The notes: a model not told the origin generated them from the letters alone. A stretch of DNA of 64,000 bases from an uncultured Verrucomicrobiales bacterium (GCA_937969495.1 CALBVY010000039.1:9374-73373), one strand, 5' to 3'. Positions 5,393-55,644 are shown, counted from the stretch's first letter. Numbers and translations are program-made.

Positions 5393-5398
5393 GTGCAC

Positions 5399-26080: not shown

Positions 26081-26094
26081 TGTGGGGCACCGAT

Positions 26095-26133: not shown

Positions 26134-26154
26134 TCAGCTCAAAATACGGGCTGA

Positions 26155-27066: not shown

Positions 27067-27179
27067 GAATAAGAAATGGAGTAAGACCTAATGTATCATC
27101 AGCATGTATCGTACCATGTTCTCTGGATTAATAAGGTTCATGCTATTAATGAGTCTAGATGTCACCGTAGGGAAATGGT

Positions 27180-27195
27180 TGGCATACCAGATGCT
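27180..27195 (+). promoter_or_regulatory. sigma54 (-24/-12) promoter of the ferredoxin-DmsC/nitrate reductase operon: TGGCATACCAGATGCT
   Basis: Exact GG-N10-GC spacing; same ATGCT -12 variant as the nirB promoter. Confidence 0.65.
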
Positions 27196-27206
27196 ATGAT
27201 AAGGTA

Positions 27207-28898: not shown

Positions 28899-28908
28899 GA
28901 GATCTAGA

Positions 28909-33780: not shown

Positions 33781-35027
33781 CAGGGTCATCCAGCTAGGGA
33801 GAGGAGATGGTTCCTGTAATCATCATCGGCCATTGCCTTCATCTGCTTCATGGGTAAAGATTTGTTAATGGTTTTATCCAATTTCAGTATGTTCTGAGCT
33901 AGTCGTCTCAACACGGCAAAATTGCGGGCTGCGTTTTTCACCCTCACTTGTGAATGGTCTTCGCGATACAGAGTGTCTAAAACCCAGTGGCAACCATTTT
34001 CAATACTCCAGTGCTGCCGTACCAAGCTTTGAAAAGTTTCAGCGCACCCATCCAAGCTGCTGATATAGAATCTCTTCTGCTTGCTGGTTTTCATGCTACT
34101 TAAACAGTAAGTCTCGGATTCGATCATGATCAGGCATTGAAGCCCGTTCCATTTTTTGCGAACCGAGCGTGACATCCAGTCAAGCTCGTTAGTGACAGCT
34201 ACTCGCCGTGTACAAACTCGACCATTGGCTTTTTCTGTTTGCTCACAAAGGCTCCAAGCCTTGCTTTTTTCCTGGGCCACCTGCGTGGTTGCAAAATGAA
34301 ACTGGTCAATAGCCTCATTGTGCAATGTCCCTTGATTGCGCTTGAGAGCCATAAGGTAGTCAGCTCCCTTGTCCTTCACTTTTTTTGCGATTGCTGTCTG
34401 GGTACCCATGGCATCCACGGAAATGACATGACCTTTGATCTCTAGCTGCTCAAGAAGAAGTGGAATGGCTGGGATCTCATTACTTTTTTTCTGCACAAAT
34501 TCCACAGCAAGTGTCACTCCTGTGTCAGCAGCCCAGGCACTCAGGCAATGCTCCTGTTCCGAACTGGACTTCCCACTACCTCTGATCGTTTTGCCATCGA
34601 TAGCTATGAGTTGTTTTGCTAACTCAGGGTGAAGATCCCTGATGTGTTCAACCACGCATTTGCTGAACTGCTGGGGATCCATGAGGGAAAACAGGTTAAT
34701 GAGAGTCTGCTTAACCGGGATACCATTGGGCAATTTGATCCATTTTTTTAACCACCGTTCATGAACATGGGCAAACTCAACAATCCCTGAAAAGGATTGA
34801 ACCCCGCAGACCAACGCGCTGACAGCAATAAACAAAATCTCCCCAAAGTAGTGTTTTTTGTTCCCTCCGAGACGAGGATCTTCGATGACGATGAATCGTT
34901 CAAAACCATTGGGTAAACCTCCCGAGTAGTCATTTTTATTTGGATTTCTGGGCATCCAGAAATTATAAGGCGCCTAACAAAAAGTACAACTCTAAATTGT
35001 CAATATTTCCCTAGCTGGATGACCCTG
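33781..35027 (-). mobile_element. ISAs1 family insertion sequence, 1247 bp
   Basis: Perfect 20-bp terminal IRs CAGGGTCATCCAGCTAGGGA (33781-33800) and its complement (35008-35027); 10-bp TSD GTAGCCATTT at 33771-33780 and 35028-35037. Confidence 0.95.
33786..34955 (-). CDS. ISAs1 family DDE transposase
   Basis: EDPR, IAIDGKT, KSNEI.A, VDAMGTQ, LKRNQ, RQHWSIEN..HWVLD..YRED; stop codon lies inside the IR. Confidence 0.96.
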   Translation of the reverse strand: MPRNPNKNDYSGGLPNGFERFIVIEDPRLGGNKKHYFGEILFIAVSALVCGVQSFSGIVEFAHVHERWLKKWIKLPNGIPVKQTLINLFSLMDPQQFSKCVVEHIRDLHPELAKQLIAIDGKTIRGSGKSSSEQEHCLSAWAADTGVTLAVEFVQKKSNEIPAIPLLLEQLEIKGHVISVDAMGTQTAIAKKVKDKGADYLMALKRNQGTLHNEAIDQFHFATTQVAQEKSKAWSLCEQTEKANGRVCTRRVAVTNELDWMSRSVRKKWNGLQCLIMIESETYCLSSMKTSKQKRFYISSLDGCAETFQSLVRQHWSIENGCHWVLDTLYREDHSQVRVKNAARNFAVLRRLAQNILKLDKTINKSLPMKQMKAMADDDYRNHLLSLAG

Positions 35028-39231: not shown

Positions 39232-39306
39232 GGCGGAGTGGCCAAGTGGTAAGGCATCGGTTTGCAAAACCGACATTCGCGGGTTCGATTCCCGCCTCCG
39301 CCTCCA
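39232..39306 (+). tRNA. tRNA-Cys (GCA)
   Basis: Acceptor stem GGCGGAG/CTCCGCC, anticodon arm TCGGT-TTGCAAA-ACCGA, T-loop GGTTCGATTCC, encoded CCA end. Confidence 0.97.
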
Positions 39307-39332
39307 TTATTTTCTTACGGGTTTAAATCAAA

Positions 39333-40502
39333 TTATCTTTGATAAATTGGAAGAATCTTCATGCAAGGTGTAAGAGCTATGATTGCTAGAGAAGTGGAGT
39401 AAGCTGCCCCATATGGTGCAGCAGAACCTCTTCTGGGCCATATCCCTGTGGGATCTTGCAAAGGTAAAAGATAATTATAGCACTCTTTCATACCTGTTAC
39501 CCAGAGTTGACCGCCCATCTGGATAGAAGCCTGTGTTACATAATAACAGGTATAATACGGGTAATATCTTCTGCAGTGCGAAAGAAAAGCATTGATATTC
39601 CTTGCTGAGAATTTACTCAAATAAGCAGACGATTTTAACAAAGCTGGGTGTTTATGTTTCCCTGCAAGGGCAACACATAACGTGCCTGCCGCTGTCATAA
39701 TAAAGGAGCTCCGATCATCACTAGAAATGTAGCGAAAGCCTCCTTGAGGCGTCTGATTTCGTAATACGAAGTTTGCAATACGGTCCATTACTTTTTCAGG
39801 GACATCAAATCCAGCGTTGCGAATAGAGCGTAGTGAAGCAGCATGCCAACCTGTCACCGATACATCTCCCTCAGCTCTATCTCTCCAAGGTCGGGTGTAG
39901 CGGAAGCCTCCGTCATCTTTTGCTTCTCCTTTCCTAATGTCCCAGAGCTGGAGTGTACACTTTAGCCCTTTTTCAATACCTTGTTTAATCCGAAAAGCAC
40001 GTTGAGGCTCAGTTAATCCATAAACCTCACCGAGCATTAGCATGCAGATGGCATGACAGTATGTCTTGGCTCCTCCACCGTTAACATATAAGTCACCTCC
40101 TCTGGGTATCATGTTAATCTCTGGATAATTAAGCTCTTGCGCAGCGAATAGTCCACTTTTTTGCTGAATGGATAACACGTAATTCAATGCCCTATCAAGT
40201 TGCTTGCCATAGGGGCCTTCGCCAGGGCGGTGCCCCCGCGATAGATATGCCATAATAGCAAGGGAGGTAATAGCTGGCTTGCCGTGTCTTTGCGTTTGAA
40301 AACTACCATTTGCCTCTTGCAGTCGCGCAAGAGCCTTCAAGCCTCTGTCCACGCTATCGGTTAGTTTTTTCATCTCAGTATCAGTCAGCGCCTGAGGAAG
40401 TGGAGCAGAAGGGTCAATAAGCGAGATTTCACCTTTGGGCACCTGTCCAAAACAACACCCCAATGAGCATATAAATACAATAATGTAAGAAATAAAATTC
40501 AT
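39333..40502 (-). CDS. Prenyltransferase/squalene-oxidase-repeat (alpha/alpha barrel) secreted protein, paralog 3
   Basis: Signal peptide, LQEANGSF/QTPQGGF QW-like repeats, DGGFRY, GDVSVTGW, C-terminal LPIYQR. Confidence 0.85.
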   Translation of the reverse strand: MNFISYIIVFICSLGCCFGQVPKGEISLIDPSAPLPQALTDTEMKKLTDSVDRGLKALARLQEANGSFQTQRHGKPAITSLAIMAYLSRGHRPGEGPYGKQLDRALNYVLSIQQKSGLFAAQELNYPEINMIPRGGDLYVNGGGAKTYCHAICMLMLGEVYGLTEPQRAFRIKQGIEKGLKCTLQLWDIRKGEAKDDGGFRYTRPWRDRAEGDVSVTGWHAASLRSIRNAGFDVPEKVMDRIANFVLRNQTPQGGFRYISSDDRSSFIMTAAGTLCVALAGKHKHPALLKSSAYLSKFSARNINAFLSHCRRYYPYYTCYYVTQASIQMGGQLWVTGMKECYNYLLPLQDPTGIWPRRGSAAPYGAAYSTSLAIIALTPCMKILPIYQR

Positions 40503-40547
40503 AGATCTATTTAATGACGATTTAATCATTTATTGTTAGATAATTCA

Positions 40548-41741
40548 CTACCTTTGATAAATTGGAAGAAGTTGTAAAGGAGGCGTGAGAGAAAGAATAG
40601 CCATTGAGGTAGAATAGACTTTCCCAAATCTAGTAGTATGCCCTAGCGGCTTCCAGAAGCCAGATTGCATCTGCTTAGGCAAAAGATAACTATAACAATT
40701 TTTCATAGATTTTCTCCAGAGACGCCCACCCAGCTGCATGCTTATCTGTGTCATATAATAGCATGTGTAGTAGGGATAATATCTATTGTATTGATTAGTA
40801 AAAAACTTGGCGCTCGTTATATCAAATCTATTAAGAAACTGGCTAGATTTCTTTAGTGCTGGATGATCGTGTTTCCCTGTTAAGGTCAGACATAGAGAGC
40901 CCGCAGCGGTCATGGTAAAAGTGCTACGATATCCTGGATGAGGTAAATACCCAAAACCTCCATCAGCGTTTTGATTTCTAATAGCAAAACCTGCTAATCT
41001 ATTGGTCACTCCTTCTGGCACCTCAAAACCAGCATTAGCAATAGACCGCAAGGAAGCTGCAAACCATGAAGTCACGGAAAAATCAGATTCACCACGTATT
41101 TGTAGACTACCTTTATAAGGGCGAAAATACCGAAAGCCACCATCATCTTTAACTGATTTTTTTCTAACATTCCAAAGCTTCAGTGTGCACACCAGACCTT
41201 TCTCAATGGCTTTACGAATGCGGAACGAATTTTTAGGATCAGAAACTCCATACACTTCTCCCAACATGAGCATACATATAGGGTGGCAATACGACTTAGC
41301 GACACCTCCCACAGAATAAAGCTCCGTCAGAGATCGCCCAGTTAAGTCCGTCTCGATGAGAGCATAGTTAAAATCTTCATTAGCAAATAATCCGCTTCTT
41401 TTTTGAATAGATAGAATGTGGTTCACAGCCTTATCCAGTAGCTTCCCATAAGGGCCTTGACCTGGTTTATGTCCCCTCGAAAGAAAAGCCATGATCGCCA
41501 TGGAAGTTACCGCAGGCTTGGAATATTCAGGGTTTGCAAAACTGCCATCTGCCAATTGCAGCGTCGCAAGAGCTTTAAGTCCTCTATCTACACTAGCCGT
41601 TAGTTTTTTAATCTCTGCATCATTAAGAGCCCTAGGAAGTGGTGCAGAAGGGTCAATAAGGGGGGGGTCACCTTTGGGAATTTCTCCAAGACAACATCCT
41701 AATGAGCAGATTAATAAAATAATATGATAGATAGATTTCAT
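40548..41741 (-). CDS. Prenyltransferase/squalene-oxidase-repeat secreted protein, paralog 2
   Basis: LQLADGSF, DGGFRY, SDFSVTSW, QNADGGFGY, LPIYQR. Confidence 0.85.
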   Translation of the reverse strand: MKSIYHIILLICSLGCCLGEIPKGDPPLIDPSAPLPRALNDAEIKKLTASVDRGLKALATLQLADGSFANPEYSKPAVTSMAIMAFLSRGHKPGQGPYGKLLDKAVNHILSIQKRSGLFANEDFNYALIETDLTGRSLTELYSVGGVAKSYCHPICMLMLGEVYGVSDPKNSFRIRKAIEKGLVCTLKLWNVRKKSVKDDGGFRYFRPYKGSLQIRGESDFSVTSWFAASLRSIANAGFEVPEGVTNRLAGFAIRNQNADGGFGYLPHPGYRSTFTMTAAGSLCLTLTGKHDHPALKKSSQFLNRFDITSAKFFTNQYNRYYPYYTCYYMTQISMQLGGRLWRKSMKNCYSYLLPKQMQSGFWKPLGHTTRFGKVYSTSMAILSLTPPLQLLPIYQR

Positions 41742-41755
41742 TCCCAGGGTACTTC

Positions 41756-42922
41756 TCATCTTTGGTAAATTGGCAGGATTTGCATGGATGGAGTTAAGGC
41801 AATAATAGCCAAAGATGTGGAGTAAGCCTGCCCATAACGTGCTGAACGCTCAAAGGCCGGCCAATGACCAGAGGCCAATTGTTTTGGCAAAAGATAGTTA
41901 TAACACTCCTTCATACATTTTACCCACAAAGCTCCACCCATCTGAATAGCTGCTTGAGTCACATAATAACACGAATAGTAAGCATAGATTGTATGCCCTC
42001 CAGTTGCTTTAAAACACAGTGGTGAAGCAGCATTAAACCGATACAAATAGCGACATGCCCGCTCAAGTGAGGAATGATCATGTCTTGCTGCTAGTCCTAT
42101 GCAAAGAGTTCCCGCAGCGGTCATCACAAATGAACTTTGTCCACGAACCAAGTAACTGAAACCTCCGTCAGGGCATTGCGTCTTGACAACGTAAGCCACA
42201 ATACGGTTCATGACATTTTCTGGCACATCAAATCCAGCATTACGAATAGAACGTAGTGAGCTTACATGCCACGCTGTAACTGATAAATCAGAATCATTAC
42301 TCCCATGAAGACGGGTGTAACGAAACCCTCCATCGTTCATTGACGATTTTTTTCTAATATCCCAGAGCTCTAAGGTGAACTTAAGTCCCTTGGTGATCGC
42401 CGCTTTAACGCGGAATGTATGCTTAGGATCAGTTAAGCCATAGACCTCTCCAAGCATAAGCATACAAATGGCATGGTTATAGGTCTTGGCAGTACCGCCT
42501 GCACCACGCACGTCCGCCTCACGTATAGGAACATTAATTAAAGCAGTATTAATTTCCTGACTCGCAAAAAGTCCGCTTTTCTTTTGGGTTGTAAGCACGT
42601 AGTCCAATGCTTTATCGATCTGCTTGCCATAAGGACCTTCGCCAGGGCGGTGACCACGCGATAAATATGCCATAATCGCAAACGAAGTAATAGCTGGCTT
42701 CCCGTGATTTAGAGTGGGAAAACTACCATCTGCTAGTTGCAATTTAGAAAGTGCCCGTAGCCCTCTATCTACGCTGGTAGTTAGCTTTTGCATCTCCGCA
42801 CTAGTTAGAGCCTGAGGGAGTGGTCCGGAAGGATCCATCAGCGGAAGCTTATCTGTTGGAGCCTGTCCTAGGCAGTATCCCGATGAATAGGTTAATAAAA
42901 TAATGTAAACAAAAGTTTTCAT
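41756..42922 (-). CDS. Prenyltransferase/squalene-oxidase-repeat secreted protein, paralog 1
   Basis: LQLADGSF, DGGFRY, SDLSVTAW, QCPDGGFSY, LPIYQR; ATGA overlap with the upstream gene. Confidence 0.85.
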   Translation of the reverse strand: MKTFVYIILLTYSSGYCLGQAPTDKLPLMDPSGPLPQALTSAEMQKLTTSVDRGLRALSKLQLADGSFPTLNHGKPAITSFAIMAYLSRGHRPGEGPYGKQIDKALDYVLTTQKKSGLFASQEINTALINVPIREADVRGAGGTAKTYNHAICMLMLGEVYGLTDPKHTFRVKAAITKGLKFTLELWDIRKKSSMNDGGFRYTRLHGSNDSDLSVTAWHVSSLRSIRNAGFDVPENVMNRIVAYVVKTQCPDGGFSYLVRGQSSFVMTAAGTLCIGLAARHDHSSLERACRYLYRFNAASPLCFKATGGHTIYAYYSCYYVTQAAIQMGGALWVKCMKECYNYLLPKQLASGHWPAFERSARYGQAYSTSLAIIALTPSMQILPIYQR

Positions 42923-45900
42923 TTGTTTTTCTCATTATTGTTATTTTCCTCAGCTATTTCGCGGAAATACTGTTCTATAGCCTCTCGATATGCCTCTGGA
43001 ATATCTGAGTCAACATCTTGACTCAAACTTTGCCTCAGCTCACTTGAGAGCTTGTTCCAACTTTCACCTCCTTCAAAAAGCTTAGTTCCACGGTTTTTCC
43101 ATGGAACGGCGATTTTTTTATAAAGAGCTTCAGACATAGCATTACGATTCTTATTAGCTTTTTGCTGAGCTTTAGCTGCATTACGTTGAGCATTTTTAGC
43201 TTGTTGCTGCTGCTCTTTTTTAGCTTGTTGCATCTCCCGACGCTTCTTTTCTATTTCCTTTTTCTCTTTTTTCTCTTTTTTTGTAGCCTTCTCCCAGTCA
43301 GTTTTCACCTTAAGATTAAAGGTTGGTTTTATACCTAGTTCCATCTTCGCTTCTCTTGGCTGTCTGGCTTCTTTTTCTAGTCTAGCAAGAGTATCTTGCA
43401 GCGCTTGTAACATATCTTCCTCGTTGAGAGTTTTTGCTGGGGCAGGAGGCTCTTCAGGGTCCGGCTCCTTGTTCTTTTCTTTGACAAATTCAACAATAGC
43501 CATATCTAACAATTTAACACCTTTCTCTATTAACTCTGCGGCTTTTTCCTGATGAGGAATGGCATTCTTAGCCCAAGGAGCTAAGTTATGTGTTAATATA
43601 TTTTTTTGAGTTTCGAGAAGATCTTTTTCCATAATCTGGCTAAGCTTATTAATCGTTTCATCTATTTTTACTGACACACCACTCAATCTAGCAAGTTCAG
43701 AAGAAAGCCTTAAAACAGTATTGGCTGTCTCAGAATTAATCTCCTTCTGCAGCTGCATCACAAATGCCTGGTAGTCTTTTTTATCCAGACAACCTAACAA
43801 ATAACGATTGGATTTTATTGATAAATCCATTGCTGTGAGGTCTGAGATCCTTATATCAACATACTCTCCATCTAAACGTTTAATATCTACATCCGCTAGA
43901 ATAGCCTCCGCTCGTTGATGGGCATGATTTAGTTTTATGAAATAACTTTTGAGCTCACTGATTTTTTCCGTTGGAGTCTCGGCCAAGCTCGTTGCTATGT
44001 TAGATAGACCGGAGAATGCTTTTGTTAATTTTTGACACTGTTCTACAGAAGCCTTTTGAGGGATCCAAATCTGGGCATTCCCCATGGCATTGGTTGTTTG
44101 ATTAGAGAATTCCATCAGACGTTCTTTCAAAATATCTGACAGCTTCTGCATCGGAAACTCTTCAACAGCTAACTCCTTATTGATATCAACAAGTAACAAC
44201 TGTCGATTCCGAAGCTTAGAAAGTACTTCTCGGAAAATACCGCCACCTGTTGGATTGAGCCTGGTGAGCATTTTTGAACGTAGGTCAGGTCGCTCTTGTA
44301 AGAGTTCGCTCAATCTCTTGAGAAGCTCTCTTTTAAATTTTATTTTGGCAATCTCATCTTTTATTTCTTGATCTGACAACTCAGCACGGAGTGTCGGGTA
44401 GGGGCTACCTGGTCATCCGCCTCATGTAGAACCTGGCATATCTTCGACGGTAACGGTATGCATCTTTTTGAACTGATGAGCCAAATTTTCAATTTCTTCC
44501 ATCTCGATGATGGATTCAAACTGTGATTCTGTTTCCTCCAATAGCTTGATTACCCATCTGAGCCGTTCATCAACAGCATCAAGCTTGACCATAATAAAAT
44601 CAGGATCAGGTTTTTTCAGAGCTTCTTTCATTGCCATCACAGCGGGTGCAAAGCCGTTTTCTACTATACCCTTAGCTTGTATCCCAAAGAATGAGTAGGG
44701 AGTGCCCTCGCTGATTTTTCTAAGATTCTCAGCGCTTTCCGCTCCTTTCTCAAGAATCTGAATTAACTCTGGGGAGAGATTACGAGAAGTATTCTGCAAG
44801 CTTTGACCTACTCTCTCTATTTGTTTATCTTTTACTAAATCATCAAAGCGGATCAAAGCAACAAGACGACGACCTTCTTGTGCGTTTTCCCGGATCCCTT
44901 CGATAACATGCTTAATCGCAATCTGTTTTTTCTTTTGTCCGTCACCTGCAACAAGATGACTTTCGTATTCATCTACAGTTACTTTCGCCGATTTACTTTG
45001 AGCTGATTCACTTTCAAGATCTAGTTTACGTTTTGCTATCTGCTCCTCTTTAGCTCGGTTCTGATTCTTATCACGGTTTTCTTTTTGTGCTTTAGCGATA
45101 GTATCAATTGCCTTATCGATTTCTTCTTCAACCTGTTTGAGCTTGGACTCCGAGTTACCAGATTCTGCAGCCTCTCCAATCAGTTCCTGAATTTTCGCAA
45201 TTGATTTTTTGACGTCGTTTTTTAAATCTTCCGAATCAATTTCTTGAGCCATCTCTTGAAGCTCGTCCACTTGTTTAGAAAGATTTTGTAAGTTGTTGGT
45301 CTGGTTCTGATCCTGCTGTCCTTGCTGACCCTGTTGACCCTGTTGACCCTGTTGACCCTGTTGACCCTGTTGACCGTCGATACCTTGGCGTATTGAATTA
45401 GCCTCTTGTTTTACAGCAGATAAGCCTGACCGCAGTTTGTTTAAATTCTCTGCTTGAGCCAGTTCCCTCTGAGCTTTTTGGAGTGCTCTTTGTGCTTCTT
45501 GATTTAGATTATGAAGTGCTTGTTCTGCTTTTTGAATATTACCTTCAGCTTCTTTCAAGTCTTCTTTAGATACATCCGGAGATTTTCCACCCCCAAGGCT
45601 TTTCTGGGCTTTACTGATTTCACTCTTTATAGCTTGCAGCTGATTTTTAGCTCCTTCATCCAAAGAACTTGCGGACTTTTTAGCTTCACTTAACTGCTGG
45701 CGTGTTTTTGCTGTCGCTGCGGCCGCTGATTGATTTTGTTTGCCGCTTTGTTGAGAAGTCTGCCCTTGCTTCTGATTTTCACCTGACTGTTTAGCCTTCA
45801 TCGCTTTCTTGTTAGAAGCGTTGGCGCTAGCCAATTGATTTTTTAATTCTCCTAGTTTAGCTATCTTCTCTTGCAGTTTTTCCTCTTGTTTTCTGAGTTC

Positions 45901-47820
45901 CTGATATTCAAGGTCGTCTTGCTTAGATTCATTCTTAGCAATTTCGTTCTCCAGCTCACGTCGCATTTTAGTCAAAGCTTCACGTGCCTTAGCAATTTCA
46001 GCCTGGCTCGATTGAAGATCCTTCATAGGATTTTTGTCAGTCTTTGCGTCCTCCAATTTTTGGTTAGCCTTAGAGATAGAAGACTTCAGATTTTTCAATT
46101 CCTCACTATTGATATCTTTCAGCTGATCTGCTCTCTGCTTTGCTTTGCTAACATGGTCTTGAGTTTTCTGAGCTAACTGCTTCTTGTTTGATTGATCATC
46201 TGGCTCCACATTTGCCTTCAAGGCCTGAGAGTTTGCTTCTTTAGCTTTTCTAAGTTCATCGTCTAGCTGATTCATTTGGCTTAAAATTTGTTTAAGCGCA
46301 TCATTTTCTTTTTCCAGTTCATCAACTAGAAATTGATTAGATTTCTCAAATGAAGCTAACCCTTTTGAGTCTTCTACTTCGACCAAATAATTAAGCTGAG
46401 AATTTTCTGTAATAGGTAATTTACTAAGATCAAGAGTAACAGAACTTTCTATTTTCTTTGAACCCTTTTGGTCTTTAAGATCTATGGGAAAATAAAACTT
46501 TTCTTTCTCCCCCTCTGCATTTGTTACCTCTGCAACTAGACGAGCCGCTTCCACCCCATAGTCATCCTTTGCTTGAAACTTAACCTCAAGCAATTCATCT
46601 GCTTTCATAACAAAAGTTTCTGTATCTTTTAGAAGGTTTACCTTAGGAGCTTTATCGGCAATAGCAACTAAGCTTATTTTCATTTGAGATTTCAAATTAC
46701 CTATTTTTGAAGTCATTTTAAAATCAGCATGAACTGTATTGATAACATTGACTTTATGGGTGTAGGTCTTTGCTGAACTTTCAGTCAGTATCTCTTGAGT
46801 AACTTTACCCCCTGTATTGGTATCAAAGGTTGCCTGAAGAACTTCTTGGTCAACTTCGATCTCGAAATCAACCACACTGCCTTGAGGTATTTTGATCTTA
46901 CGTGGAAGCTTACTCAGGATCCAAGGTTTCAGTTTAGTATATGCTGGAGGTGTAATGGTAATTTTCCCACTGACGATAGCAGGCTTATCAATCATAGTAA
47001 CCTGCTTCCAAGCTGACTGAGTATCACCAGCAATAACACGATAAGAGAAGTCTGCTACCCTATTTAATATCTTGTGAGAAAGGCTCCCAGTAGCTTGATC
47101 GATGTCAATCAAACGCTCTTCGATCAACCCGCTCGTAGAGCGTTCTTGGACTTTTACTTGATCCGGTATTTTCCCAGAAACGGTAACCTCAATTGAGTAA
47201 TCTTTTCCTCTTGGATGAATCACCTCACCTTCTTTCTGAGAAATTATCGTTAGAGTATTATTATTCCATGGACTTAACAGCCTATCCAATAATTTAGGGA
47301 AAGCAGATCCCATCATAAAAGCAAAACCGCATAATAAAATAATAGAACCAACAAAAGTAAAAGAAGCTTGTTTAAATGACCGGCTTTTAATTAATTTACT
47401 ACTTCCACTTTTTATTTCTAAATGATTGACCTGATCTCCTACGGCTTGAAGTAAATTTGTCGAACAATTTTCTGCGCCCTCTAATTCTACTGAAGTCACT
47501 AAACGTTCCTCGAGATCGGGGTTTACTTCATCTAGCCATTTTGCTGTTTCTTCCTGACTAGATTCGAACTTCATTTTTCCCCAGACCCATCGAAAAGAAA
47601 CAATGAGTACTACTAATACAACTAAACTAAGTATAACCCGTGACCATAAAGATTTTAACTCAAAATTCCAGTCAATATACATCGCTAGTATAACTGGTAA
47701 AACAATGGCACTAGCAATACCTAAAAAGAGATAGATTGTCCGAATTAGCCTACGCTCACGTTTTTCAGCCGAGAGAGCTTTCAGAGTTTCTTCAGATAAA
47801 TGATTGTTATTTTGTGTCAT
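42919..47820 (-). CDS. Giant membrane-anchored coiled-coil protein (DUF4175-like architecture), probably one 1633-aa selenoprotein with U-G-G-U at 1133-1136; otherwise two ORFs 44422-47820 and 42919-44379
   Basis: Both track ORFs share a frame. The linker reads ...DMPGST-TGA-GGC-GGA-TGA-PGSPYPTLRAELSDQE. Three N-terminal TM segments, Ig-like beta region, long coiled coils, C-terminal W..L...LR..L.Q..IPEAYREAIEQYF motif. SECIS-like hairpin downstream of the TGAs. Confidence 0.7.
44375..44395 (-). promoter_or_regulatory. Candidate bacterial SECIS element
   Basis: GACA-CUC[CGUGCU]GAG-U-UGUC: 7-bp stem, bulged U, 6-nt loop with G at position 2; loop starts 24 and 33 nt after the two UGAs. Confidence 0.55.
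45313..45375 (-). repeat. 9-bp tandem repeat encoding (GQQ)7
   Basis: Five perfect GGTCAACAG units (45331-45375) plus two synonymous variants. Confidence 0.95.
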
Positions 47821-47844
47821 GATAACTATGCGTTATTGGTTTGC

Positions 47845-50460
47845 TTATGAAAGACCTATTCGACGACGTAATGCCCACTCTGAAGCAGCTATAAAGAGAA
47901 TGGCAATAAGTAATGGCCAAACATCCCAAAGGGGGCGTTTTTTTGTTGTTTTGATAATTTCGGGCTTAAAATCAAGAGCTTCAAGCATCAGAGAAAAAGT
48001 GCCCGGAGTAATCGTTGCTGCAAGTGGCAGACTGTTAACTTGACCCCAAAATTTGGAGTTAGCATCTGCAATCTGTAACTCTTCTACTTCGATTTCTTTT
48101 TCTACAATGATTTTGATAAGCTCCTTATCCGGATGAAGTTTTTGATCAGAATCTATAATATGTTGGATAGCCTCTCCTGAATAATTTAGTTCGTATTCCC
48201 CAGAAGGAATATCTCTAAACCTCACATAGAAATCTCCAGGTTGATTATCCACTGGTATTGGCTTCATCTCTGCTACTGCAGTGCCGTCCTTGCTTAAAAC
48301 AGCAGTAAAGTCAGCATCAGTAAATGGCTCGCCGTTCTCAGCCTTAACTCGGAGACGTCCCTCTATTTCCTCACCTGGTTTTAAAATTGCCCGTTGAAGA
48401 CGAGTGGCGAGCAAGGTGTCACTGAATCCGTAATTATCGACACATATGCCACGGATAATTTGTCCCCATAGCTTTGCGTGATATTTATCTCCATATCTGA
48501 AGCGGAGATGATAGAGGCAAGGGGCTGCAAAGTAGGCCACTCTTCCGCTACCATAGCGCTGTTTCGCACAGAAATCATAAGATGTTCCATCACTCGACGT
48601 TGCTTTTAGGAGCACATTCGCGGATGATTTTGCTTTAAGCCAAGGAGAGAGTGAATACTGAGGAGTGACTTGGAAAATTGACTGCCAAATCTGCTGAGTT
48701 TTTTCCCCTTCCAGATCAACCATTCGGTTAATAGGTCTGTTTATGGGAGGGTGCACTACAAAAGACCCATTTATCATAGTATTACTAACCTTTATCATTG
48801 GAATTAACGCTTCTAGTGGTCCATCCATGAAACTAGATGGCATACTATGAGGCCCAGCTAGAATAATAAGATTTCCTCCATCATTCACATATTCTAAAAG
48901 CAATTTCTGATGTTCTAGCGTTAGGTATTCAGGAGTAAGATCTCCTAGAATAACAAGATCATAAAGCTTCCATGTTGCCAAATCAAAGGGAAGCGCAATC
49001 GGCTCTTTAGCGGACTTCCCAGGAAAACTGTGTCTTGGCTGGAATACGATACTGCTCATCTTAATCGAGGGGTCTCGATTAAAAAGATTTTGTAAGTAAC
49101 GAGTTTCCCAACGCGGAAATGTATCAGAGACTAAAACCTTATAATTGTCTTTAAGAACCGCACAATCTAGGGAGGCCTTATTATTAATGAGGGAGGTCTC
49201 GCCTGTTATTGAGGATAACTCGATGACAAGCTGATGCATACCAACACCCTTCGCTTGCCATTTAATATCTACTTGTTCACTTGTTCCATTTCCTTTCAAG
49301 CTCACTTCCTGGCTTTGTAAGATTTTATCCCCTTCTTTCAAAGAAAGTGTTACTATCTCTGGCACACTGTTCTTTGAAGAAACTAAAACTGTTACAATAA
49401 GGGTATCTTTCTCTCGTATTCTTGAAGGACTGACTACTGAATCGATCCGAGCATCTGGGGTATTAGATGCGTCCCCTACTGGAAAGACGATTAGAGGCTG
49501 ACTCAAAATATCGTTAGAAAAATTCTTTTCCATATCACCCGAGTCATAACCATCAGTGATCAATATCGAAAGTTGTGTTCCTTTCATATAATCACGTCTC
49601 CCTAGATTATTTAAATTTTCATAAAGATGTGTTTTAGGTTCTCCAGATAAATCCACCTCAACCTTCTTATTCATATCTTGCTGAGAAAGGGTATTTGAGA
49701 ACTTTGAAACGCGTAAGTCATAGCGCTCTGAAAGCTCTTCAAACACTTTATTAGATTTCTGGAGCCAATTATTCACCAAGGTTAAGCGGGACAGATTCTC
49801 TTTAGCCACTCCGGATGGCTCTTGTATAGCAATGACTCGTCTCAGGCTCGTAGCAGTCTGAGAAATAAGTTCTGATGCACGGTAGAGATCACCTAAAAAA
49901 TCATCAGAACCAACATCTTGAAGCACGCCCATCGATGCATTTAATGTCTTTCGTGGTGCTTTCATCAATCTAGTTAGGGAGGTATCATTTTTAATAATGT
50001 CTAACTTTAAACCAGCCTGCTTTAAGATTTCTATAATACTCACTATCTCAGCATGAAGGCCTTCAGAAGATTTACTTAGATTACGATTTAGAAGATTCAG
50101 CCGAATTCGAGCAGCCTCAGTTAAGGTAAGGGCCTCATCGATTGGTTGAGGAGCTGAGAAATTTTCCCATGAAGAAGTGTTTACGCCAATCTCATCTGTG
50201 AGAGACATACTCTGTGAAACATCAATCCCTAAATTGGCAGTAACAGGGAGTAATTCTTCTTTAGTTTTGATCGCGCGTGGCTGAGCAATCAAAAGCCATA
50301 TCAGTAAGCTCAAAATCGAACGCAGTAAAAATAATGTCCAGCGTACCTTCTTCGTTTGATCCTGAGTTTGCTGATGAAGTAGATAACCGAAAAAAGCAAT
50401 AGTAAGCCCAGCCCCTATGAGAAGCTGAACGGGATGCAATGATGTTTCGATGCTAGACAT
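47845..50460 (-). CDS. Membrane protein with vWA-like and class I glutamine amidotransferase-like (GATase1_like/DUF1355) domains
   Basis: IDVSQSM MIDAS-like motif, LITDG, PRWETRYL, YDLVILGD, GGNLIILAG, YGSGRV, C-terminal TM LWD.WPLL...EWALRRRIGL. Confidence 0.78.
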   Translation of the reverse strand: MSSIETSLHPVQLLIGAGLTIAFFGYLLHQQTQDQTKKVRWTLFLLRSILSLLIWLLIAQPRAIKTKEELLPVTANLGIDVSQSMSLTDEIGVNTSSWENFSAPQPIDEALTLTEAARIRLNLLNRNLSKSSEGLHAEIVSIIEILKQAGLKLDIIKNDTSLTRLMKAPRKTLNASMGVLQDVGSDDFLGDLYRASELISQTATSLRRVIAIQEPSGVAKENLSRLTLVNNWLQKSNKVFEELSERYDLRVSKFSNTLSQQDMNKKVEVDLSGEPKTHLYENLNNLGRRDYMKGTQLSILITDGYDSGDMEKNFSNDILSQPLIVFPVGDASNTPDARIDSVVSPSRIREKDTLIVTVLVSSKNSVPEIVTLSLKEGDKILQSQEVSLKGNGTSEQVDIKWQAKGVGMHQLVIELSSITGETSLINNKASLDCAVLKDNYKVLVSDTFPRWETRYLQNLFNRDPSIKMSSIVFQPRHSFPGKSAKEPIALPFDLATWKLYDLVILGDLTPEYLTLEHQKLLLEYVNDGGNLIILAGPHSMPSSFMDGPLEALIPMIKVSNTMINGSFVVHPPINRPINRMVDLEGEKTQQIWQSIFQVTPQYSLSPWLKAKSSANVLLKATSSDGTSYDFCAKQRYGSGRVAYFAAPCLYHLRFRYGDKYHAKLWGQIIRGICVDNYGFSDTLLATRLQRAILKPGEEIEGRLRVKAENGEPFTDADFTAVLSKDGTAVAEMKPIPVDNQPGDFYVRFRDIPSGEYELNYSGEAIQHIIDSDQKLHPDKELIKIIVEKEIEVEELQIADANSKFWGQVNSLPLAATITPGTFSLMLEALDFKPEIIKTTKKRPLWDVWPLLIAILFIAASEWALRRRIGLS

Positions 50461-50466
50461 GTATTT

Positions 50467-52680: not shown

Positions 52681-53621
52681 TATTTCATAAAGGTTGTTTG
52701 ACGTTCAATAAACTTAGTCAACGAGGCACCCACTGGCTGGTCTGTTACTAAAGGTTCATAGCCAGCTCGATTCGATAAACAAATCTTACGAAGCTTCTCA
52801 ATATGGTCTTCCACAGCAGCTCTGTAAGCATCCACTATTTCATGAGGATTAACATCAAGACTTTCGTTAGATTCCAGGCTTACAAACCGAAAAGGATTTT
52901 TATAATCAAATGTGATTTCTTCAGGTGCTAGAGTCTGAAGCCAATGGAACCGGTGCCTACGTCCTGTCAGAAAAGCAAGCTCAGGCTCTAAAGTATCAAG
53001 ATCTAATAAGGCATCTGAAACAATGATAACCCTAGTCGGGTTTCGTAGACTTTTCCCAAGATTCCGGAGGCTCTCAGCAATTCGTGTTTCACCTGATGCA
53101 GGAGTCTGAGCCAGAGTATGTAAAATCTGATGAAACTGTGAGCTAGACGCCTTCGGCCACAGTAATCCAGGGGCATCATCCCCCGCAATCAGCAAACCTA
53201 CTGGGTCTCTTTCTTGAAGAACAGCTTTAGAGAGAAACGCAACAATAGCCTGAGCAAAATGATACTTGGAACGAGATGACTCTGCAAATGACATTGAGCC
53301 GCTAGCATCGATTAGAAACACCGTTTCCAGCGTAGATGGGTCATCGTATAATTTGATTTCGAGGCGATCAGACCGTCCCACAATACGCCAATCAAGCTTT
53401 CTCACCTCATCACCAGGAGAATAGGAGCGATGCTCTGCAAATTCCGTTGTTCCGCCCCTGAGCCTAGCTCGATGGATACCTGACATCCTACCTCTTACCC
53501 GTTGATTGACAGGAAAACTCGCCTTTTTAAGATAAGTCATATCTTCTGAGGTGAGCCATTCATCCAGTAGATAAGACTGAGAAGCGGATGCTTTATTGAG
53601 CTGTGGTTCCACAGAGTTCAT
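52680..53621 (-). CDS. DUF58 domain protein (vWA-like)
   Basis: G.H.....G.TTEFAEHRSYSPGDEVRKLDWR, LIDASGSM, IVSD. Confidence 0.93.
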   Translation of the reverse strand: MNSVEPQLNKASASQSYLLDEWLTSEDMTYLKKASFPVNQRVRGRMSGIHRARLRGGTTEFAEHRSYSPGDEVRKLDWRIVGRSDRLEIKLYDDPSTLETVFLIDASGSMSFAESSRSKYHFAQAIVAFLSKAVLQERDPVGLLIAGDDAPGLLWPKASSSQFHQILHTLAQTPASGETRIAESLRNLGKSLRNPTRVIIVSDALLDLDTLEPELAFLTGRRHRFHWLQTLAPEEITFDYKNPFRFVSLESNESLDVNPHEIVDAYRAAVEDHIEKLRKICLSNRAGYEPLVTDQPVGASLTKFIERQTTFMK

Positions 53622-54617
53622 CTATAGCATATGTGAGATGATTTCATCTGGAGAAAGACCCTCTGATTCAGCATTAAACGTAAGTGCAATACGATGCCTG
53701 AGAATTGGATACGCCATGGCAGCAATATCTTCCGTCGTAACATGCTGACGGCCGTGTAAAACCGCTCTCGCCTTAGCAGAAGACGCTAAGAAAATACTCG
53801 CTCTAGGACCAGCTCCGAATCCTATCTTATCTACCAATTCTGGAGGCATCTCAGCGGAATTAGGCCGAGATCTTCTCACCACCGCAGCCGCATAATCAAC
53901 ACATGTCTTAGAAATGGGCACCTTGCGGATGACGCGCTGCATAGCCTCTAGCTCTTCGCCCTCGATTACCGGCTCTAGAGTAACACGGCCTTCGCTTGAA
54001 GCCTTTTCTACAATCTTAGACTCATCCTCTGCACTTGGGTAGTTAAGGAGAATCTTCAGCATAAACCGATCCAGCTGAGCTTCTGGCAGAGGATAGGTTC
54101 CCTCTTGTTCAATAGGATTTTGAGTTGCTAGAACGAAAAAAGGCTTAGGTAATGGGTGAGTAACTTGGCCAATAGTAACCTGCCTCTCTTCCATCGCCTC
54201 TAGTAAAGCACTTTGAGTTTTGGGCGGGGTTCTGTTTACTTCATCAGCTAAAACAAAATTTCCAAAAAGTGGCCCCTCTTGAAAACGGAAAAAACGTTCA
54301 CCTGTTTCCATGTCTTGCTGTAACACTTCAGAACCAGTAAGATCTCCAGGCATCAGATCTGGAGTAAACTGGACCCTTTTAAAACTAAGATCCAGTAAAC
54401 AAGCGATTGAAGAAATAAGCTTAGTCTTAGCCAAGCCAGGTGCGCCCTCTAAGATACAATGTCCACCGCATAATAGAGTGATGAAAATTTGTTCTATTTC
54501 AGAATCGAGCCCAATAATCACTTTAGAGAGCTCAGCTTTAATACTAGCAAAGCTCGTTTGGATCTTTTGAGTAACTTCTAGGTCTGATTCTATCAGAGTG
54601 TTTTCTTGTGTTAACAT
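53622..54617 (-). CDS. MoxR family AAA+ ATPase
   Basis: LEGAPGLAKT, RVQFTPDLMPGD, LADEVNRTPPKTQSALLEAM, ATQNPIEQEGTYPLPEAQLDRF. Confidence 0.97.
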   Translation of the reverse strand: MLTQENTLIESDLEVTQKIQTSFASIKAELSKVIIGLDSEIEQIFITLLCGGHCILEGAPGLAKTKLISSIACLLDLSFKRVQFTPDLMPGDLTGSEVLQQDMETGERFFRFQEGPLFGNFVLADEVNRTPPKTQSALLEAMEERQVTIGQVTHPLPKPFFVLATQNPIEQEGTYPLPEAQLDRFMLKILLNYPSAEDESKIVEKASSEGRVTLEPVIEGEELEAMQRVIRKVPISKTCVDYAAAVVRRSRPNSAEMPPELVDKIGFGAGPRASIFLASSAKARAVLHGRQHVTTEDIAAMAYPILRHRIALTFNAESEGLSPDEIISHML

Positions 54618-54964
54618 TGAGAGAGTAATTTAGTGATTATTAAGTGTATGAGCTTTAATGAATTAAATATGGATATGATACGTCTTTAAACTAGGCTTTT
54701 ATCATTTCAACATCATTTCTTGATTTTTATTTTTTAAGTAGGCAATAAAGGTTAAATCGATGGCTTTTATAACAAAAAAGATAAATATGTTAGAAAGGCT
54801 AAAATTATTATAATAATTGCGTGCTGATTGATCTGGTATCAACCCATAAATTTTACGCGAAGTTCCCCTCGTCTGTCCATAGAGGGCGTCCATCACAACC
54901 TACTATCCAAACGATAGCGTAGCAGCTTTAGTTGCCTACTATGTCTTTTTTTTGTAAAAAGATG

Positions 54965-55019
54965 TGTGGATATTTCCACACATTCAAACCAAGTCAACTT
55001 AAATGTGGTTTTTTTCACA
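54965..55019. promoter_or_regulatory. Twin dyads TGTGG-N6-CCACA (54965-54980) and TGTGG-N6-TCACA (55004-55019), CRP/FNR-like geometry
   Basis: Two related palindromes 39 bp apart in the divergent intergenic region. Confidence 0.45.
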
Positions 55020-55065
55020 GTTACGTGATCTGCAACTTCTTCTCAGATCCCGAGTTTAAGGATAC

Positions 55066-55644
55066 ATGAGACTTCTCTATATTACCCTAGCCCTTGTTCT
55101 TGCGCAGCCAGTTTTAGCGCAGCGAAATCGTGTTGATAATGCGCCTAAAGTGGGTGAACCGATTCCCCAGGTATCCGCCGTGGCAATGAAAGGTCATCAA
55201 AAAGTGGATCTTTCCAAGCCTGATAAAGTGACGGTTCTTATCTTTGGGTCTCATACCTGAGGGCCATTCATGCGGCAGACCGGGCGTCTGCAGAAAATGT
55301 ATGAAACTTATGGTGAAAAGGCTGATTTTTGGTGGATCTACATTCAAGAGGCGCATGCTACGGATGGCCGCCGGCCTAGCAAAAAAGTTAAAATTGCTCT
55401 GCATAAAACGTTAGAAGACCGGAAAAAAGCTGCTGCTGGGTGTAGCGAAGCTTCTCGTTTAAAGGTGCCTGTGCTTCTTGATGATATGCAGGATACAGTT
55501 TCCAATGCCTACTCAGCGCGCCCTGAGAGGTTTTTTATTCTCGGTGCAGATGGTAAGGTGGCTTACTCAGGAGCGCGCGGCCCCAGAGGCATTAATCTTG
55601 ATGCCCTAGAGAAGCGGTTAAGTGAACTTACCACCAAGGAGTAA
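55066..55644 (+). CDS. Secreted iodothyronine-deiodinase-like (thioredoxin-fold) selenoprotein, 192 aa, Sec65
   Basis: Track ORFs 55066-55260 and 55270-55644 are in frame: VLIFGSHT-TGA-GPFM, then YIQEAHATDG. This matches the deiodinase FGS.TUPPF and YI.EAH..DG motifs. Signal peptide present; SECIS-like hairpin downstream. Confidence 0.88.
55275..55291 (+). promoter_or_regulatory. Candidate bacterial SECIS element
   Basis: GCAGAC[CGGGC]GUCUGC perfect 6-bp stem; loop begins 20 nt after the UGA and has G at position 2. Confidence 0.65.

What the first reader, a model, noticed from the sequence alone, without database searches (positions are those of the whole stretch)
39333..55644. Candidate undescribed selenium-dependent envelope machine: MoxR-DUF58-BatA/vWA-vWA/GATase-UGGU coiled-coil-3x alpha/alpha barrel, divergent from a second selenoprotein
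Seen: eight minus-strand genes with tiny gaps or overlaps (including ATGA overlaps), sharing a ~450-bp divergent intergenic region with the deiodinase-like gene. Established: MoxR AAA+ ATPases work with vWA partners as chaperone or insertase modules. MoxR/DUF58/BatA/prenyltransferase-repeat clusters are common in PVC bacteria, and their function is unknown. Inference: a cytoplasmic ATPase is coupled via membrane vWA proteins to a long periplasmic scaffold carrying a di-Sec centre, with three barrel paralogs as possible client or specificity subunits. A Sec link gives a testable redox or metal-handling hypothesis for this cluster family.
Basis: partly seen in the sequence, partly recalled or inferred. 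Interest (0 to 1): 0.8.

Follow-up and report, generated by a model that had tools for sequence, protein, structure and literature searches.

The report
Two-selenocysteine protein in MoxR operon
A giant membrane protein in a conserved but functionally unknown MoxR/vWA envelope operon of a marine verrucomicrobium is very probably an unlisted selenoprotein with two selenocysteines, but the selenium site is confined to one small clade and the neighbouring deiodinase-like selenoprotein gene is there by accident.

Summary
Eight tightly packed minus-strand genes (39333-54617) encode MoxR, DUF58, a BatA/vWA membrane protein, an 871-aa membrane protein, a 1,633-residue DUF4175-type giant interrupted by TGA-GGC-GGA-TGA, and three secreted alpha/alpha-toroid paralogs.

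The two TGAs are very probably selenocysteine codons. Orthologs carry C-D-C or C-C at that spot. Six distinct Sec-type orthologs keep the frame (UGGU, U or UC). All six share a 7-bp hairpin with a CGUG loop 24 nt after the conserved UGA, with two compensatory pairs; the Cys forms lack it. A 2026 table of 119 prokaryotic selenoprotein families does not list this family, and NCBI annotates only a truncated "DUF4175 family protein".

The wider interpretation is only partly right. The Sec/Cys site lies in a variable, probably disordered and periplasmic linker. It occurs in one verrucomicrobial subclade only; most of about 120 other family clusters have no Cys there, and one close ortholog has none. 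The machine is therefore not generally selenium-dependent.

The deiodinase-like gene belongs to a known selenoprotein family, and its adjacency is accidental: a close relative has the same backbone without the cluster, and no other fetched locus pairs them.

Function is inferred: an accessory redox or soft-metal site on a Bat-type envelope complex.

The parts
53622..54617 (-). MoxR-class AAA+ ATPase (331 aa), first gene of the cluster; predicted cytoplasmic
   Evidence: Pfam AAA_3 3.3e-62, AAA_lid_2 1.8e-18; no hydrophobic segment
52680..53621 (-). DUF58 protein with a vWA-like domain (313 aa); starts directly after the MoxR stop codon
   Evidence: Pfam DUF58 4e-30, VWA_2 2.7e-11; 81-86% identical in L001, L007 and L008
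50467..52680 (-). BatA-type membrane protein (737 aa): N-terminal double-TM domain, vWA domain, C-terminal TM segment
   Evidence: Pfam BatA 4.8e-18, VWA_2 2.2e-5; TIGR02226 2.2e-18; TM-like segments 6-24, 57-75 and 698-716
47845..50460 (-). 871-aa membrane protein with the same 2+1 TM layout, a DxSxS (MIDAS-like) motif after TM2 and a weak GATase1-like region
   Evidence: TM-like segments 10-28, 41-59 and 846-864; only sub-threshold GATase1_like 0.015, ThuA 0.09 and DUF7408 0.0014; conserved position in all syntenic loci
42919..47820 (-). DUF4175-type giant selenoprotein, 1,633 residues if both UGAs are decoded. Layout: 3 N-terminal TM segments, DUF4175 domain, Q/K/E-rich coiled coil with a (QQG)n repeat, helical C-terminal domain.
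   Evidence: Read-through translation; Pfam DUF4175 2.9e-16; TM-like segments 29-47, 62-80 and 156-174; uninterrupted 1,238-1,610-aa orthologs in L009, L010 and L011
44413..44424 (-). TGA GGC GGA TGA = Sec1133-Gly-Gly-Sec1136. The 3' UGA (44415-44413) is the one kept in all Sec-type orthologs.
   Evidence: Orthologs carry UGGU (L001, L006, L007), U (L002, L003/L008), UC (L091), CDC (L004, L005, P0058), CC (L010, P0059) or nothing (L009):
44375..44395 (-). Candidate bacterial SECIS hairpin GACACUC[CGUGCU]GAG(U)UGUC. The loop begins 24 nt after the 3' UGA and 33 nt after the 5' UGA.
   Evidence: Present in all six distinct Sec forms: 97.6% of cells paired, 2 pairs with compensatory changes, 7/500 shuffles reach this; -6.3 to -8.0 kcal/mol each, and absent from Cys and no-Cys orthologs; synonymous-codon identity 0.81 here against 0.54 gene-wide; the covariance model finds no other site above 11 bits in 1.33 Mb
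41756..42922 (-). Secreted alpha/alpha-toroid protein 1 (388 aa), 'terpene cyclase/mutase family' by NCBI naming
   Evidence: AF2 pLDDT 92.6, pTM 0.91; Foldseek best hit 8pak_A, squalene-hopene cyclase, E 4e-8, TM 0.59-0.65; signal peptide; no DxDD motif and no conserved Cys
40548..41759 (-). Secreted alpha/alpha-toroid paralog 2 (403 aa)
   Evidence: Pfam Prenyltrans 1.3e-4, below cut-off; tandem paralog, 64-80% nt identity over blocks
39333..40529 (-). Secreted alpha/alpha-toroid paralog 3 (398 aa), last gene of the cluster
   Evidence: Pfam Prenyltrans 1.8e-5, below cut-off; tandem paralog
55066..55644 (+). NOT part of the system: a divergently oriented deiodinase-like selenoprotein gene (192 aa, signal peptide, Sec65 at 55258-55260, SECIS hairpin about 55275-55291) that belongs to the conserved chromosomal backbone
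   Evidence: Pfam T4_deiodinase 9.8e-33; 51 homologs, all called only from after the UGA; hairpin GCAGAC[CGGGC]GUCUGC conserved with a compensatory change in L089; synteny breaks at 39307 and 55031

Best explanation
The locus is a Bat-type MoxR/vWA envelope operon conserved in Verrucomicrobiae. Relatives of its giant protein also occur in Planctomycetota.

Components:
- a cytoplasmic MoxR AAA+ ATPase and its DUF58 partner;
- two three-TM membrane proteins with vWA/MIDAS-type domains;
- a giant DUF4175-type protein, with 3 TM segments followed by about 1,450 residues of mostly helical or coiled-coil chain outside the membrane;
- one to three secreted alpha/alpha-toroid proteins.

In the Rubritalea-like clade to which the window belongs, the giant protein is a genuine selenoprotein (shown by comparison). 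Both in-frame UGAs are decoded as Sec with the help of one downstream SECIS hairpin. The 3' UGA has the spacing seen in all Sec forms; the 5' UGA is an extra one, 9 nt upstream. These residues replace the Cys residues of sister orthologs (CDC, CC).

The site sits in a Gly/Pro/Ser-rich, non-helical linker of about 30 residues, right after the family-wide helix motif FKKMHxxT[IV]EDMP.

Inferred, not shown:
- The linker is periplasmic.
- The U-G-G-U (or U-C, C-C, C-x-C) pair forms a reversible diselenide, selenenylsulfide or disulfide, or binds a soft metal.
- It acts as an accessory redox or metal-sensitive element on the scaffold, not as the core of the machine, because most of the family has no Cys or Sec there.

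The deiodinase-like selenoprotein next door is an independent, already known family. Its adjacency results from the cluster occupying a variable slot next to tRNA-Cys.
For: Sec decoding:
- The frame is preserved across TGA-GGN-GGN-TGA, with only synonymous changes between and before the TGAs in window, L001 and L007.
- Cys sits at the aligned positions in P0004, P0006, P0058, P0059 and L010.
- Six distinct Sec forms share the hairpin, with A-U>G-C and C-G>A-U compensations and a constant CGUG loop.
- The hairpin is missing in Cys forms.
- Synonymous-site conservation peaks over the hairpin codons.
- TGA is an ordinary stop for 8 other confident genes in the window, each followed by a next in-frame stop within 25 codons.
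- A second, well-known selenoprotein gene with its own SECIS lies in the same window.

Operon:
- Gaps run from -4 to 24 nt.
- The same gene order recurs in L001, L006, L007, L009, L010, L011 and L091.

Clade restriction:
- In an NJ tree the Sec forms are one clade, sister to the Cys forms; outgroups lack the site.
- The family has only 181 clusters (at 50% identity) in 1.84 billion proteins, and most lack Cys in the loop.

Linker and topology:
- The AF2 model of P0004 is all-helical, and residues 251-290, which contain the site, have pLDDT below 50.
- Topology comes from hydropathy.

Not previously listed:
- Table 1 of PMC13188914 has no such family.
- NCBI names the truncated R. profundi product 'DUF4175 family protein'.

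Independence of the deiodinase-like gene.
Against: - No selA, selB, selC or selD gene is in the window, and no complete genome of a Sec-form organism could be scanned. The Sec trait is therefore supported only indirectly.
- The hairpin is short (7 bp, about -6.5 kcal/mol) and on its own folds no better than shuffled sequence. Covariation rests on six sequences.
- Rfam has no matching SECIS model, though it also misses the deiodinase SECIS.
- One SECIS serving two UGAs 9 nt apart is unusual if the strict spacing known from E. coli fdhF applies (from memory).
- There are no expression data.
- The proposed chemistry of the site is pure inference. One close ortholog (L009) does without any Cys or Sec.
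Confidence: 0.7

Rival explanations
1. One reading: a dedicated selenium-dependent envelope machine in which the di-Sec scaffold and the divergently transcribed deiodinase-like selenoprotein work together from a shared regulatory region.
For: Both genes carry in-frame UGA codons with downstream hairpins and share a 448-bp divergent intergenic region containing a perfect 9-bp-arm palindrome. Both products are predicted to be exported.
Against: L087/L088 keep Asd, polyprenyl synthase, PFK and tRNA-Cys on one side and the deiodinase-like gene, GFO/IDH and the nucleoside symporter on the other, but have no MoxR cluster between them. Colinearity with the window ends at 39307 and resumes at 55031, only 35 nt before the deiodinase start. 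In Oceaniferula and Roseibacillus the deiodinase-like gene has unrelated neighbours. No deiodinase-like sequence occurs in any locus fetched around DUF4175-type orthologs, including L010, which has 1.2 kb upstream of MoxR. Most members of the family have no Sec or Cys at the site.
Confidence: 0.06
2. The TGAs are real stops. The locus holds two separate genes (1,132 aa and about 486 aa) or a decaying pseudogene, and the hairpin is a by-product of the conserved peptide PYPTLRxELSD.
For: Gene callers and NCBI annotate it that way. The R. profundi copy also has a frameshift just upstream. The hairpin's energy is unremarkable.
Against: The stop(s) fall at exactly the position of Cys in uninterrupted orthologs. 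The downstream frame is always the same, and the called C-terminal ORFs need TTG or internal starts with no space for a ribosome-binding site. Six diverged lineages keep the arrangement. Changes in the stem are compensatory and synonymous. L009 encodes PYPTL with the same codons but has lost the hairpin together with the Sec.
Confidence: 0.05
3. A selenium-gated length switch. Competition between Sec insertion and termination at two successive UGAs makes the ratio of truncated (1,132-aa, membrane-anchored coiled coil) to full-length scaffold depend on selenium supply. The UGAs would then be regulatory as much as chemical. This is compatible with the best explanation.
For: Two UGAs in a row should multiply the termination probability. 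The site lies at a domain boundary (a disordered linker between long helices), so a truncated product could fold. The number of UGAs varies among close relatives (1 or 2).
Against: There is no direct evidence. Cys orthologs show that a thiol at this site is itself selected. The C-terminal domain is the best conserved part of the family, so a truncated protein probably lacks function.
Confidence: 0.12
4. UGA is decoded as a standard amino acid (Trp, Gly or Cys) through codon reassignment or leaky read-through, not as Sec.
For: UGA-to-Trp reassignment has been reported in some Verrucomicrobiota (abstract of PMC13462651, seen).
Against: 8 other confident genes in the window end in TGA with a next in-frame stop within 25 codons. 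The aligned residue in orthologs is Cys, never Trp. A conserved hairpin accompanies the UGA only in these forms.
Confidence: 0.03

Closest known systems
Bat (Bacteroides aerotolerance)-type MoxR/DUF58/BatA-vWA operons, e.g. Leptospira biflexa bat genes and Borrelia BB0170-BB0176 (PMC3557215, PMC5700661, PMC11834572)
   Same: MoxR AAA_3 ATPase, then DUF58, then a membrane protein with the BatA N-terminal double-TM domain and a vWA domain, all tightly packed. Function is unresolved; the links are to stress and the envelope.
   Different: No TPR (BatC/BatE) or BatD proteins were detected. Instead there is an 871-aa GATase1-like membrane protein, a DUF4175-type giant and secreted alpha/alpha toroids. 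No Bat-type system with a selenoprotein was found in the literature searched.
DUF4175 / TIGR02302 membrane proteins (alphaproteobacterial 'aProt_lowcomp'; the Acinetobacter division protein AdvA carries a DUF4175 domain, PMC7481262)
   Same: N-terminal TM segments followed by the DUF4175 region (Pfam 59 bits) and a low-complexity helical chain. NCBI names the R. profundi fragment 'DUF4175 family protein'.
   Different: TIGR02302 is far below its cut-off (18.6 against 394 bits). The C-terminal domain with FKKMHxxTxEDMP and ...IPEEYREAIEQYFREIA defines a small family of its own (181 clusters). Sec is present.
Prokaryotic selenoproteins with paired Sec or Sec/Cys motifs: Prx-like UxxU, metal-binding protein NF041115 UxxU, FmdB-family UxxU, MbdU CU (Table 1 of PMC13188914). 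From memory: eukaryotic SelL (UxxU diselenide) and the GCUG tail of thioredoxin reductase.
   Same: Two chalcogen residues 0-2 positions apart (UGGU, UC), interchangeable with Cys in homologs, with a SECIS hairpin just downstream. The site is on a flexible segment, like the TrxR tail.
   Different: The host is not a thioredoxin-fold or small metal-binding protein but a 1,633-residue structural membrane protein. The motif spacing is not fixed (UxxU, U, UC, CxC, CC). The family is absent from the 119 listed families.
Bacterial deiodinase-like selenoproteins (PF00837; Sargasso Sea and GOS surveys, PMC1088965; PMC13188914). This concerns the neighbouring gene only.
   Same: The neighbour at 55066-55644 is a typical member: signal peptide, FGSHT-U-GPF, SECIS, and many verrucomicrobial homologs.
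   Different: Nothing distinguishes it. It is not part of the MoxR cluster.

Membership tests
Bacterial selenoprotein (SelB/SECIS-dependent UGA decoding) | In-frame UGA with conserved coding sequence on both sides | tested here: met
   Flanks FKKMHxxTIEDMP and PYPxLRxELSD are conserved in all orthologs. Six distinct Sec forms were found.
Bacterial selenoprotein (SelB/SECIS-dependent UGA decoding) | Homologs with Cys aligned to the UGA | tested here: met
   CDC in P0004, P0006 and P0058; CC in L010 and P0059. The TGC/TGT codon aligns with the 3' TGA.
Bacterial selenoprotein (SelB/SECIS-dependent UGA decoding) | Stem-loop shortly downstream of the UGA with G/U in the apical loop, conserved and covarying. 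The 16-37 nt spacing rule of bSECISearch is recalled from memory. | tested here: met
   7-bp stem with loop CGUGNN, 24 nt after the conserved UGA; 97.6% paired; 2 compensatory pairs. Absent in Cys forms. No Rfam model applies.
Bacterial selenoprotein (SelB/SECIS-dependent UGA decoding) | selA, selB, selD and tRNA-Sec in the same genome | not testable with these tools
Indirect support comes from a second selenoprotein gene in the window.
Bat-type MoxR/vWA operon | MoxR (AAA_3) ATPase followed by DUF58 and a BatA-domain vWA membrane protein | tested here: met
Bat-type MoxR/vWA operon | Further Bat components: a second vWA protein (BatB), TPR proteins (BatC/BatE) and BatD | tested here: not met
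   No TPR or BatD hits. The 871-aa protein has only a DxSxS motif and sub-threshold GATase1_like hits.
DUF4175 (Pfam PF13779) / TIGR02302 | Score above the curated cut-off | tested here: inconclusive
   Pfam DUF4175 scores 59.1 bits against a cut-off of 27.3 but covers only profile positions 190-380 of 825. TIGR02302 scores 18.6 bits against a cut-off of 394.
Class II terpene cyclase / protein prenyltransferase beta (alpha/alpha toroid) | Alpha/alpha toroid fold | tested here: met
   AF2 pLDDT 92.6. Foldseek hits to 8pak, 8paj, 3sqc, MstE and FTase beta, E 4e-8 to 1e-5, TM 0.5-0.65.
Class II terpene cyclase / protein prenyltransferase beta (alpha/alpha toroid) | Catalytic signatures: the DxDD acid motif (cyclases) or Asp/Cys/His zinc ligands (prenyltransferases). 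The motifs are recalled from memory. | tested here: not met
   No D.D[DE] or DDxxD motif in any of the three paralogs. No Cys column above 62% in 47 homologs. All three window copies fall below the Pfam cut-off.
Deiodinase-like selenoprotein (neighbouring gene) | PF00837 above its cut-off, with Sec in the active-site stretch and a SECIS | tested here: met
   113.9 bits against a cut-off of 27; FGSHT-U-GPF; hairpin conserved in L087, L089 and L090

The most novel reading that the evidence does not exclude
The Sec/Cys linker is the working redox- or metal-sensing centre of this Bat-type envelope system. Because two UGAs must be decoded to finish the scaffold, selenium supply gates the assembly of the whole MoxR/vWA machine. 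That would give the first chemical handle on what Bat/MoxR-vWA-DUF4175 operons do, for example sensing or repairing oxidative damage in the periplasm.
Probability: 0.15. Interest if true: 0.75.

Novelty: new variant of a known kind. Interest (0 to 1): 0.5.

Why it matters
Three reasons:

1. It adds a selenoprotein family that the most recent inventory does not list and that current annotation truncates. Unusually, the host is a giant, non-enzymatic, probably structural envelope protein rather than a thioredoxin-fold enzyme. Two UGAs appear to be served by one SECIS.

2. The natural series UGGU / U / UC / CC / CDC / none at one spot is a ready-made experiment on what Sec does better than Cys.

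3. Bat-type MoxR/vWA operons are widespread and have no known function. A redox-active or metal-binding pair on the exported scaffold in one clade is a concrete, testable hint that fits the old 'aerotolerance' phenotype.

The work also corrects an attractive but wrong inference: that two neighbouring selenoprotein genes form one system.

Tried and rejected
- Two metagenome-contig scans (DUF58 alignment A3, C-terminal alignment A1) confirmed no relative. No extra JGI loci were gained.
- No RNA run holds the locus; only three marine-metagenome DNA runs do. Co-transcription is therefore untested.
- The promoter and terminator scan was at chance level.
- Rfam has no hit on the candidate SECIS, but it also has none on the well-supported deiodinase SECIS, so it is uninformative.
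- The AF2 model of the C-terminal domain (P0004) was too uncertain (pLDDT 63.5, pTM 0.35) for a fold search. It was used only for secondary structure and disorder.
- I looked for an att-like repeat of the tRNA-Cys 3' end, to test whether the cluster is a mobile island, and found none.
- I considered a LanC-like or zinc-dependent role for the toroids acting on the Cys/Sec loop. I rejected it because 47 homologs have no conserved Cys and no DxDD motif.
- I considered UGA reassignment and rejected it.
- The hairpin nearest the UGAs (GGUAG-CCC-CUACC) was the first SECIS candidate. It is not conserved in the single-U forms, so I moved to the second hairpin.
- A scan for other in-frame TGAs with long ORFs on both sides found only the deiodinase-like gene.

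Full report
WHAT IS THERE

ORF listing and stop-codon analysis show eight minus-strand genes between 39333 and 54617, with junctions of 0, -1, 6, 24, -4 (ATGA), -4 (ATGA) and 18 nt.

Family scans identify:
- a MoxR-class AAA+ ATPase (AAA_3, 3e-62);
- a DUF58/vWA protein (4e-30);
- a membrane protein with the BatA/TIGR02226 double-TM domain and a vWA domain;
- an 871-aa membrane protein with only sub-threshold GATase1-like hits;
- a DUF4175-type giant (2.9e-16);
- three paralogs that fall just under the Pfam prenyltransferase cut-off.

An AlphaFold model of the first paralog, built on 47 homologs, is confident (pLDDT 92.6, pTM 0.91). It matches single-domain squalene-hopene-cyclase-like and prenyltransferase-beta toroids (E 4e-8, TM about 0.6). 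The DxDD motif and any conserved Cys are missing, so only the fold is shared.

Simple hydropathy analysis gives this topology:
- MoxR and DUF58 are in the cytoplasm.
- The two middle proteins have a 2+1 TM layout.
- The giant has three N-terminal TM segments followed by about 1,450 residues outside.
- The toroids have signal peptides.

The topology is inference, not measurement.

THE UGGU SITE

The 1,132-codon ORF ends TGA GGC GGA TGA (44424-44413), and the same frame runs on for 497 codons.

A search of 5.8 billion proteins with the region spanning the site found only six relatives. Two of them (P0004, P0006) cross the site and read ...EDMPPSE-C-D-C-RSGPY... where the window reads ...EDMPGST-U-G-G-U-PGSPY....

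The contigs behind the hits, and a scan of one genome per GTDB species, gave the DNA:
- UGGU: window, L006 (99% identical), L001 and a Rubritalea sp. MAG (L007).
- A single U, aligned with the 3' UGA: L002, a TARA contig (L003) and Rubritalea profundi (L008).
- U-C: L091.
- C-D-C: L004, L005, P0058.
- C-C: an Akkermansiaceae MAG (L010) and P0059.
- No Cys or Sec at all: L009.

Between window, L001 and L007 the codons inside and just before the motif differ only synonymously (GGC/GGA, TCT/AGC, ACA/ACC), so this stretch is translated.

THE SECIS

All six distinct Sec forms share GACACUC[CGUGNN]GAG(U)UGUC, at window 44395-44375. The loop begins 24 nt after the conserved UGA and 33 nt after the extra upstream UGA.

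- L008/L003 change A-U to G-C through two synonymous substitutions.
- L091 changes that pair and also C-G to A-U.
- Overall, 97.6% of cells pair, two pairs show compensatory change, only 7 of 500 column shuffles do as well, and slid registers pair at no more than 52%.
- The 11-codon bin containing the hairpin has the highest synonymous-codon identity in the gene: 0.81, against a mean of 0.54.
- Cys-type orthologs and L009 do not form the hairpin. L009 still carries the 15-nt 5' half, which looks like a relic.
- A covariance model of the element finds nothing else above 11 bits in 1.33 Mb of window plus loci. The training sequences match by construction, so this shows specificity only.
- On a single sequence the hairpin's energy is unremarkable.
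- Rfam recognises neither this hairpin nor the deiodinase one.

UGA is otherwise a normal stop here (8 other confident genes), which rules out reassignment.

The Sec machinery genes are not in the window and could not be looked for elsewhere. This is the main gap in the evidence.

HOW GENERAL IS THE SITE?

A profile search of 1.84 billion cluster representatives found only 181 related clusters. In the ~120 that span the site, the preceding motif [FLIV]KKMHxxFxEDM is family-wide, but the loop after it is variable. Most have no Cys there; about nine have one Cys.

An NJ tree of the C-terminal domain puts all Sec forms in one clade. That clade is sister to the CDC/CC forms plus L009. The outgroups lack the site.

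An AF2 model of the Cys-form P0004 is all-helical but of low confidence. The site falls in a 40-residue stretch with pLDDT below 50, between two long helices. No other Cys of the exported part is conserved.

So the pair is a self-contained, clade-specific addition on a flexible linker, not the conserved core of the system.

THE OPERON

The order MoxR, DUF58, BatA, ~872-aa protein, giant, toroid(s) recurs in L001, L006, L007, L009, L010, L011 and L091, with one to three toroid genes. The three window copies are tandem paralogs. Co-transcription is inferred from spacing and synteny only, because no RNA data exist.

THE DEIODINASE-LIKE NEIGHBOUR

The gene at 55066-55644 encodes a signal-peptide protein with FGSHT-U-GPF. 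It matches PF00837 at 1e-32, has a conserved hairpin, and has 51 verrucomicrobial homologs, all called only from downstream of the UGA. This family has been known since the Sargasso Sea survey (PMC1088965; Table 1 of PMC13188914).

Its adjacency to the cluster is not conserved:
- L087/L088 (82% identical protein by tblastn) are colinear with the window up to the end of tRNA-Cys (39307) and again from 55031. In between they hold 5.6 kb of other genes, including an integrase-associated DUF6538, instead of the 15.7-kb cluster.
- In Oceaniferula and Roseibacillus the gene has unrelated neighbours.
- tblastn finds no deiodinase-like gene in any locus fetched around the giant's orthologs. Only L010 (fully) and L011 (partly) extend far enough upstream of MoxR to be informative.

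The two selenoprotein genes are therefore neighbours by accident.

COMPARISON WITH WHAT IS KNOWN

The cluster is a variant of the Bat/MoxR-vWA operons studied in Bacteroides, Leptospira, Borrelia and Riemerella, whose function remains unclear (PMC3557215, PMC5700661, PMC11834572). The giant belongs loosely to DUF4175.

Paired Sec motifs (UxxU, CU) are known in small redox or metal-binding selenoproteins (PMC13188914). No entry among that table's 119 families corresponds to this protein. No paper links Sec with MoxR or DUF4175. NCBI annotates the truncated R. profundi product as an ordinary DUF4175 family protein.

VERDICT

- The di-Sec reading is well supported: about 0.85 for Sec decoding itself.
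- The operon is real but of a known kind.
- The 'selenium-dependent machine with a partner selenoprotein' is not supported.
- The most likely role of the site is an accessory redox or soft-metal element on the exported scaffold. This is inference.
- Interest is moderate: a new selenoprotein family in an unusual host, and a useful natural Sec/Cys series, but not a new kind of system.

Noticed in passing
window 54962-54983: A perfect palindrome, ATGTGTGGA-AAT(A)-TCCACACAT (9-bp arms), lies in the MoxR/deiodinase intergenic region. It is inside the part that is not shared with the relative L087, so it belongs to the cluster side. It could be an operator or a bidirectional terminator.
   Followed up: no
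window 39232-39307 and 55031; L087 4060-9761: The MoxR cluster occupies a variable slot directly after tRNA-Cys. The close relative L087/L088 has a 5.6-kb segment there instead, with an integrase-associated DUF6538 gene. No att-like repeat of the tRNA end was found in the window. GC content is lower across the cluster (0.37-0.45) than in the flanks (about 0.45-0.50).
   Followed up: partly
window 44397-44409 (minus strand): A second mini-hairpin, GGUAG-CCC-CUACC, lies 3 nt after the 3' UGA. It is intact only in the UGGU forms and degraded in the single-U forms. It may help decode the upstream UGA, or it may simply reflect the GSPY codons.
   Followed up: partly
L009 10562-10605: This ortholog has no Sec or Cys at the site but keeps the 15-nt 5' half of the SECIS hairpin (CCCTACCCGACACTC) and the outer UGUC. 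This looks like a relic of a lost SECIS, although the NJ tree groups L009 with the Cys forms.
   Followed up: partly
L008 about 10500 (Rubritalea profundi SAORIC-165): The cultured strain's copy of the giant gene has a frameshift just upstream of the Sec site, and only one toroid gene follows. This is either an assembly error or decay of the locus, and it matters if the strain is used for experiments.
   Followed up: no
window 45308-45384; L004 about 3290-3390: A 9-nt tandem repeat encodes (QQG)n inside the coiled-coil part of the giant. The same repeat causes an N-gap in scaffold L004, and a 13-nt duplication causes a frameshift in L005. Both are assembly artefacts that split the gene calls.
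   Followed up: partly
window 5393-12744: An RND efflux operon (HlyD-like, AcrB, OEP) is interrupted between the pump and the outer-membrane factor by an IrrE-like M78 peptidase/DUF4411 gene pair (9633-11317). A KAP-family NTPase follows (12728-14971).
   Followed up: no
window 23507-31149 and 33786-34955: This stretch holds a NirB-type nitrite reductase, a LysR regulator, an Fe-S/DmsC-like fusion protein and a molybdopterin oxidoreductase (no in-frame TGA), with a DDE transposase nearby.
   Followed up: no
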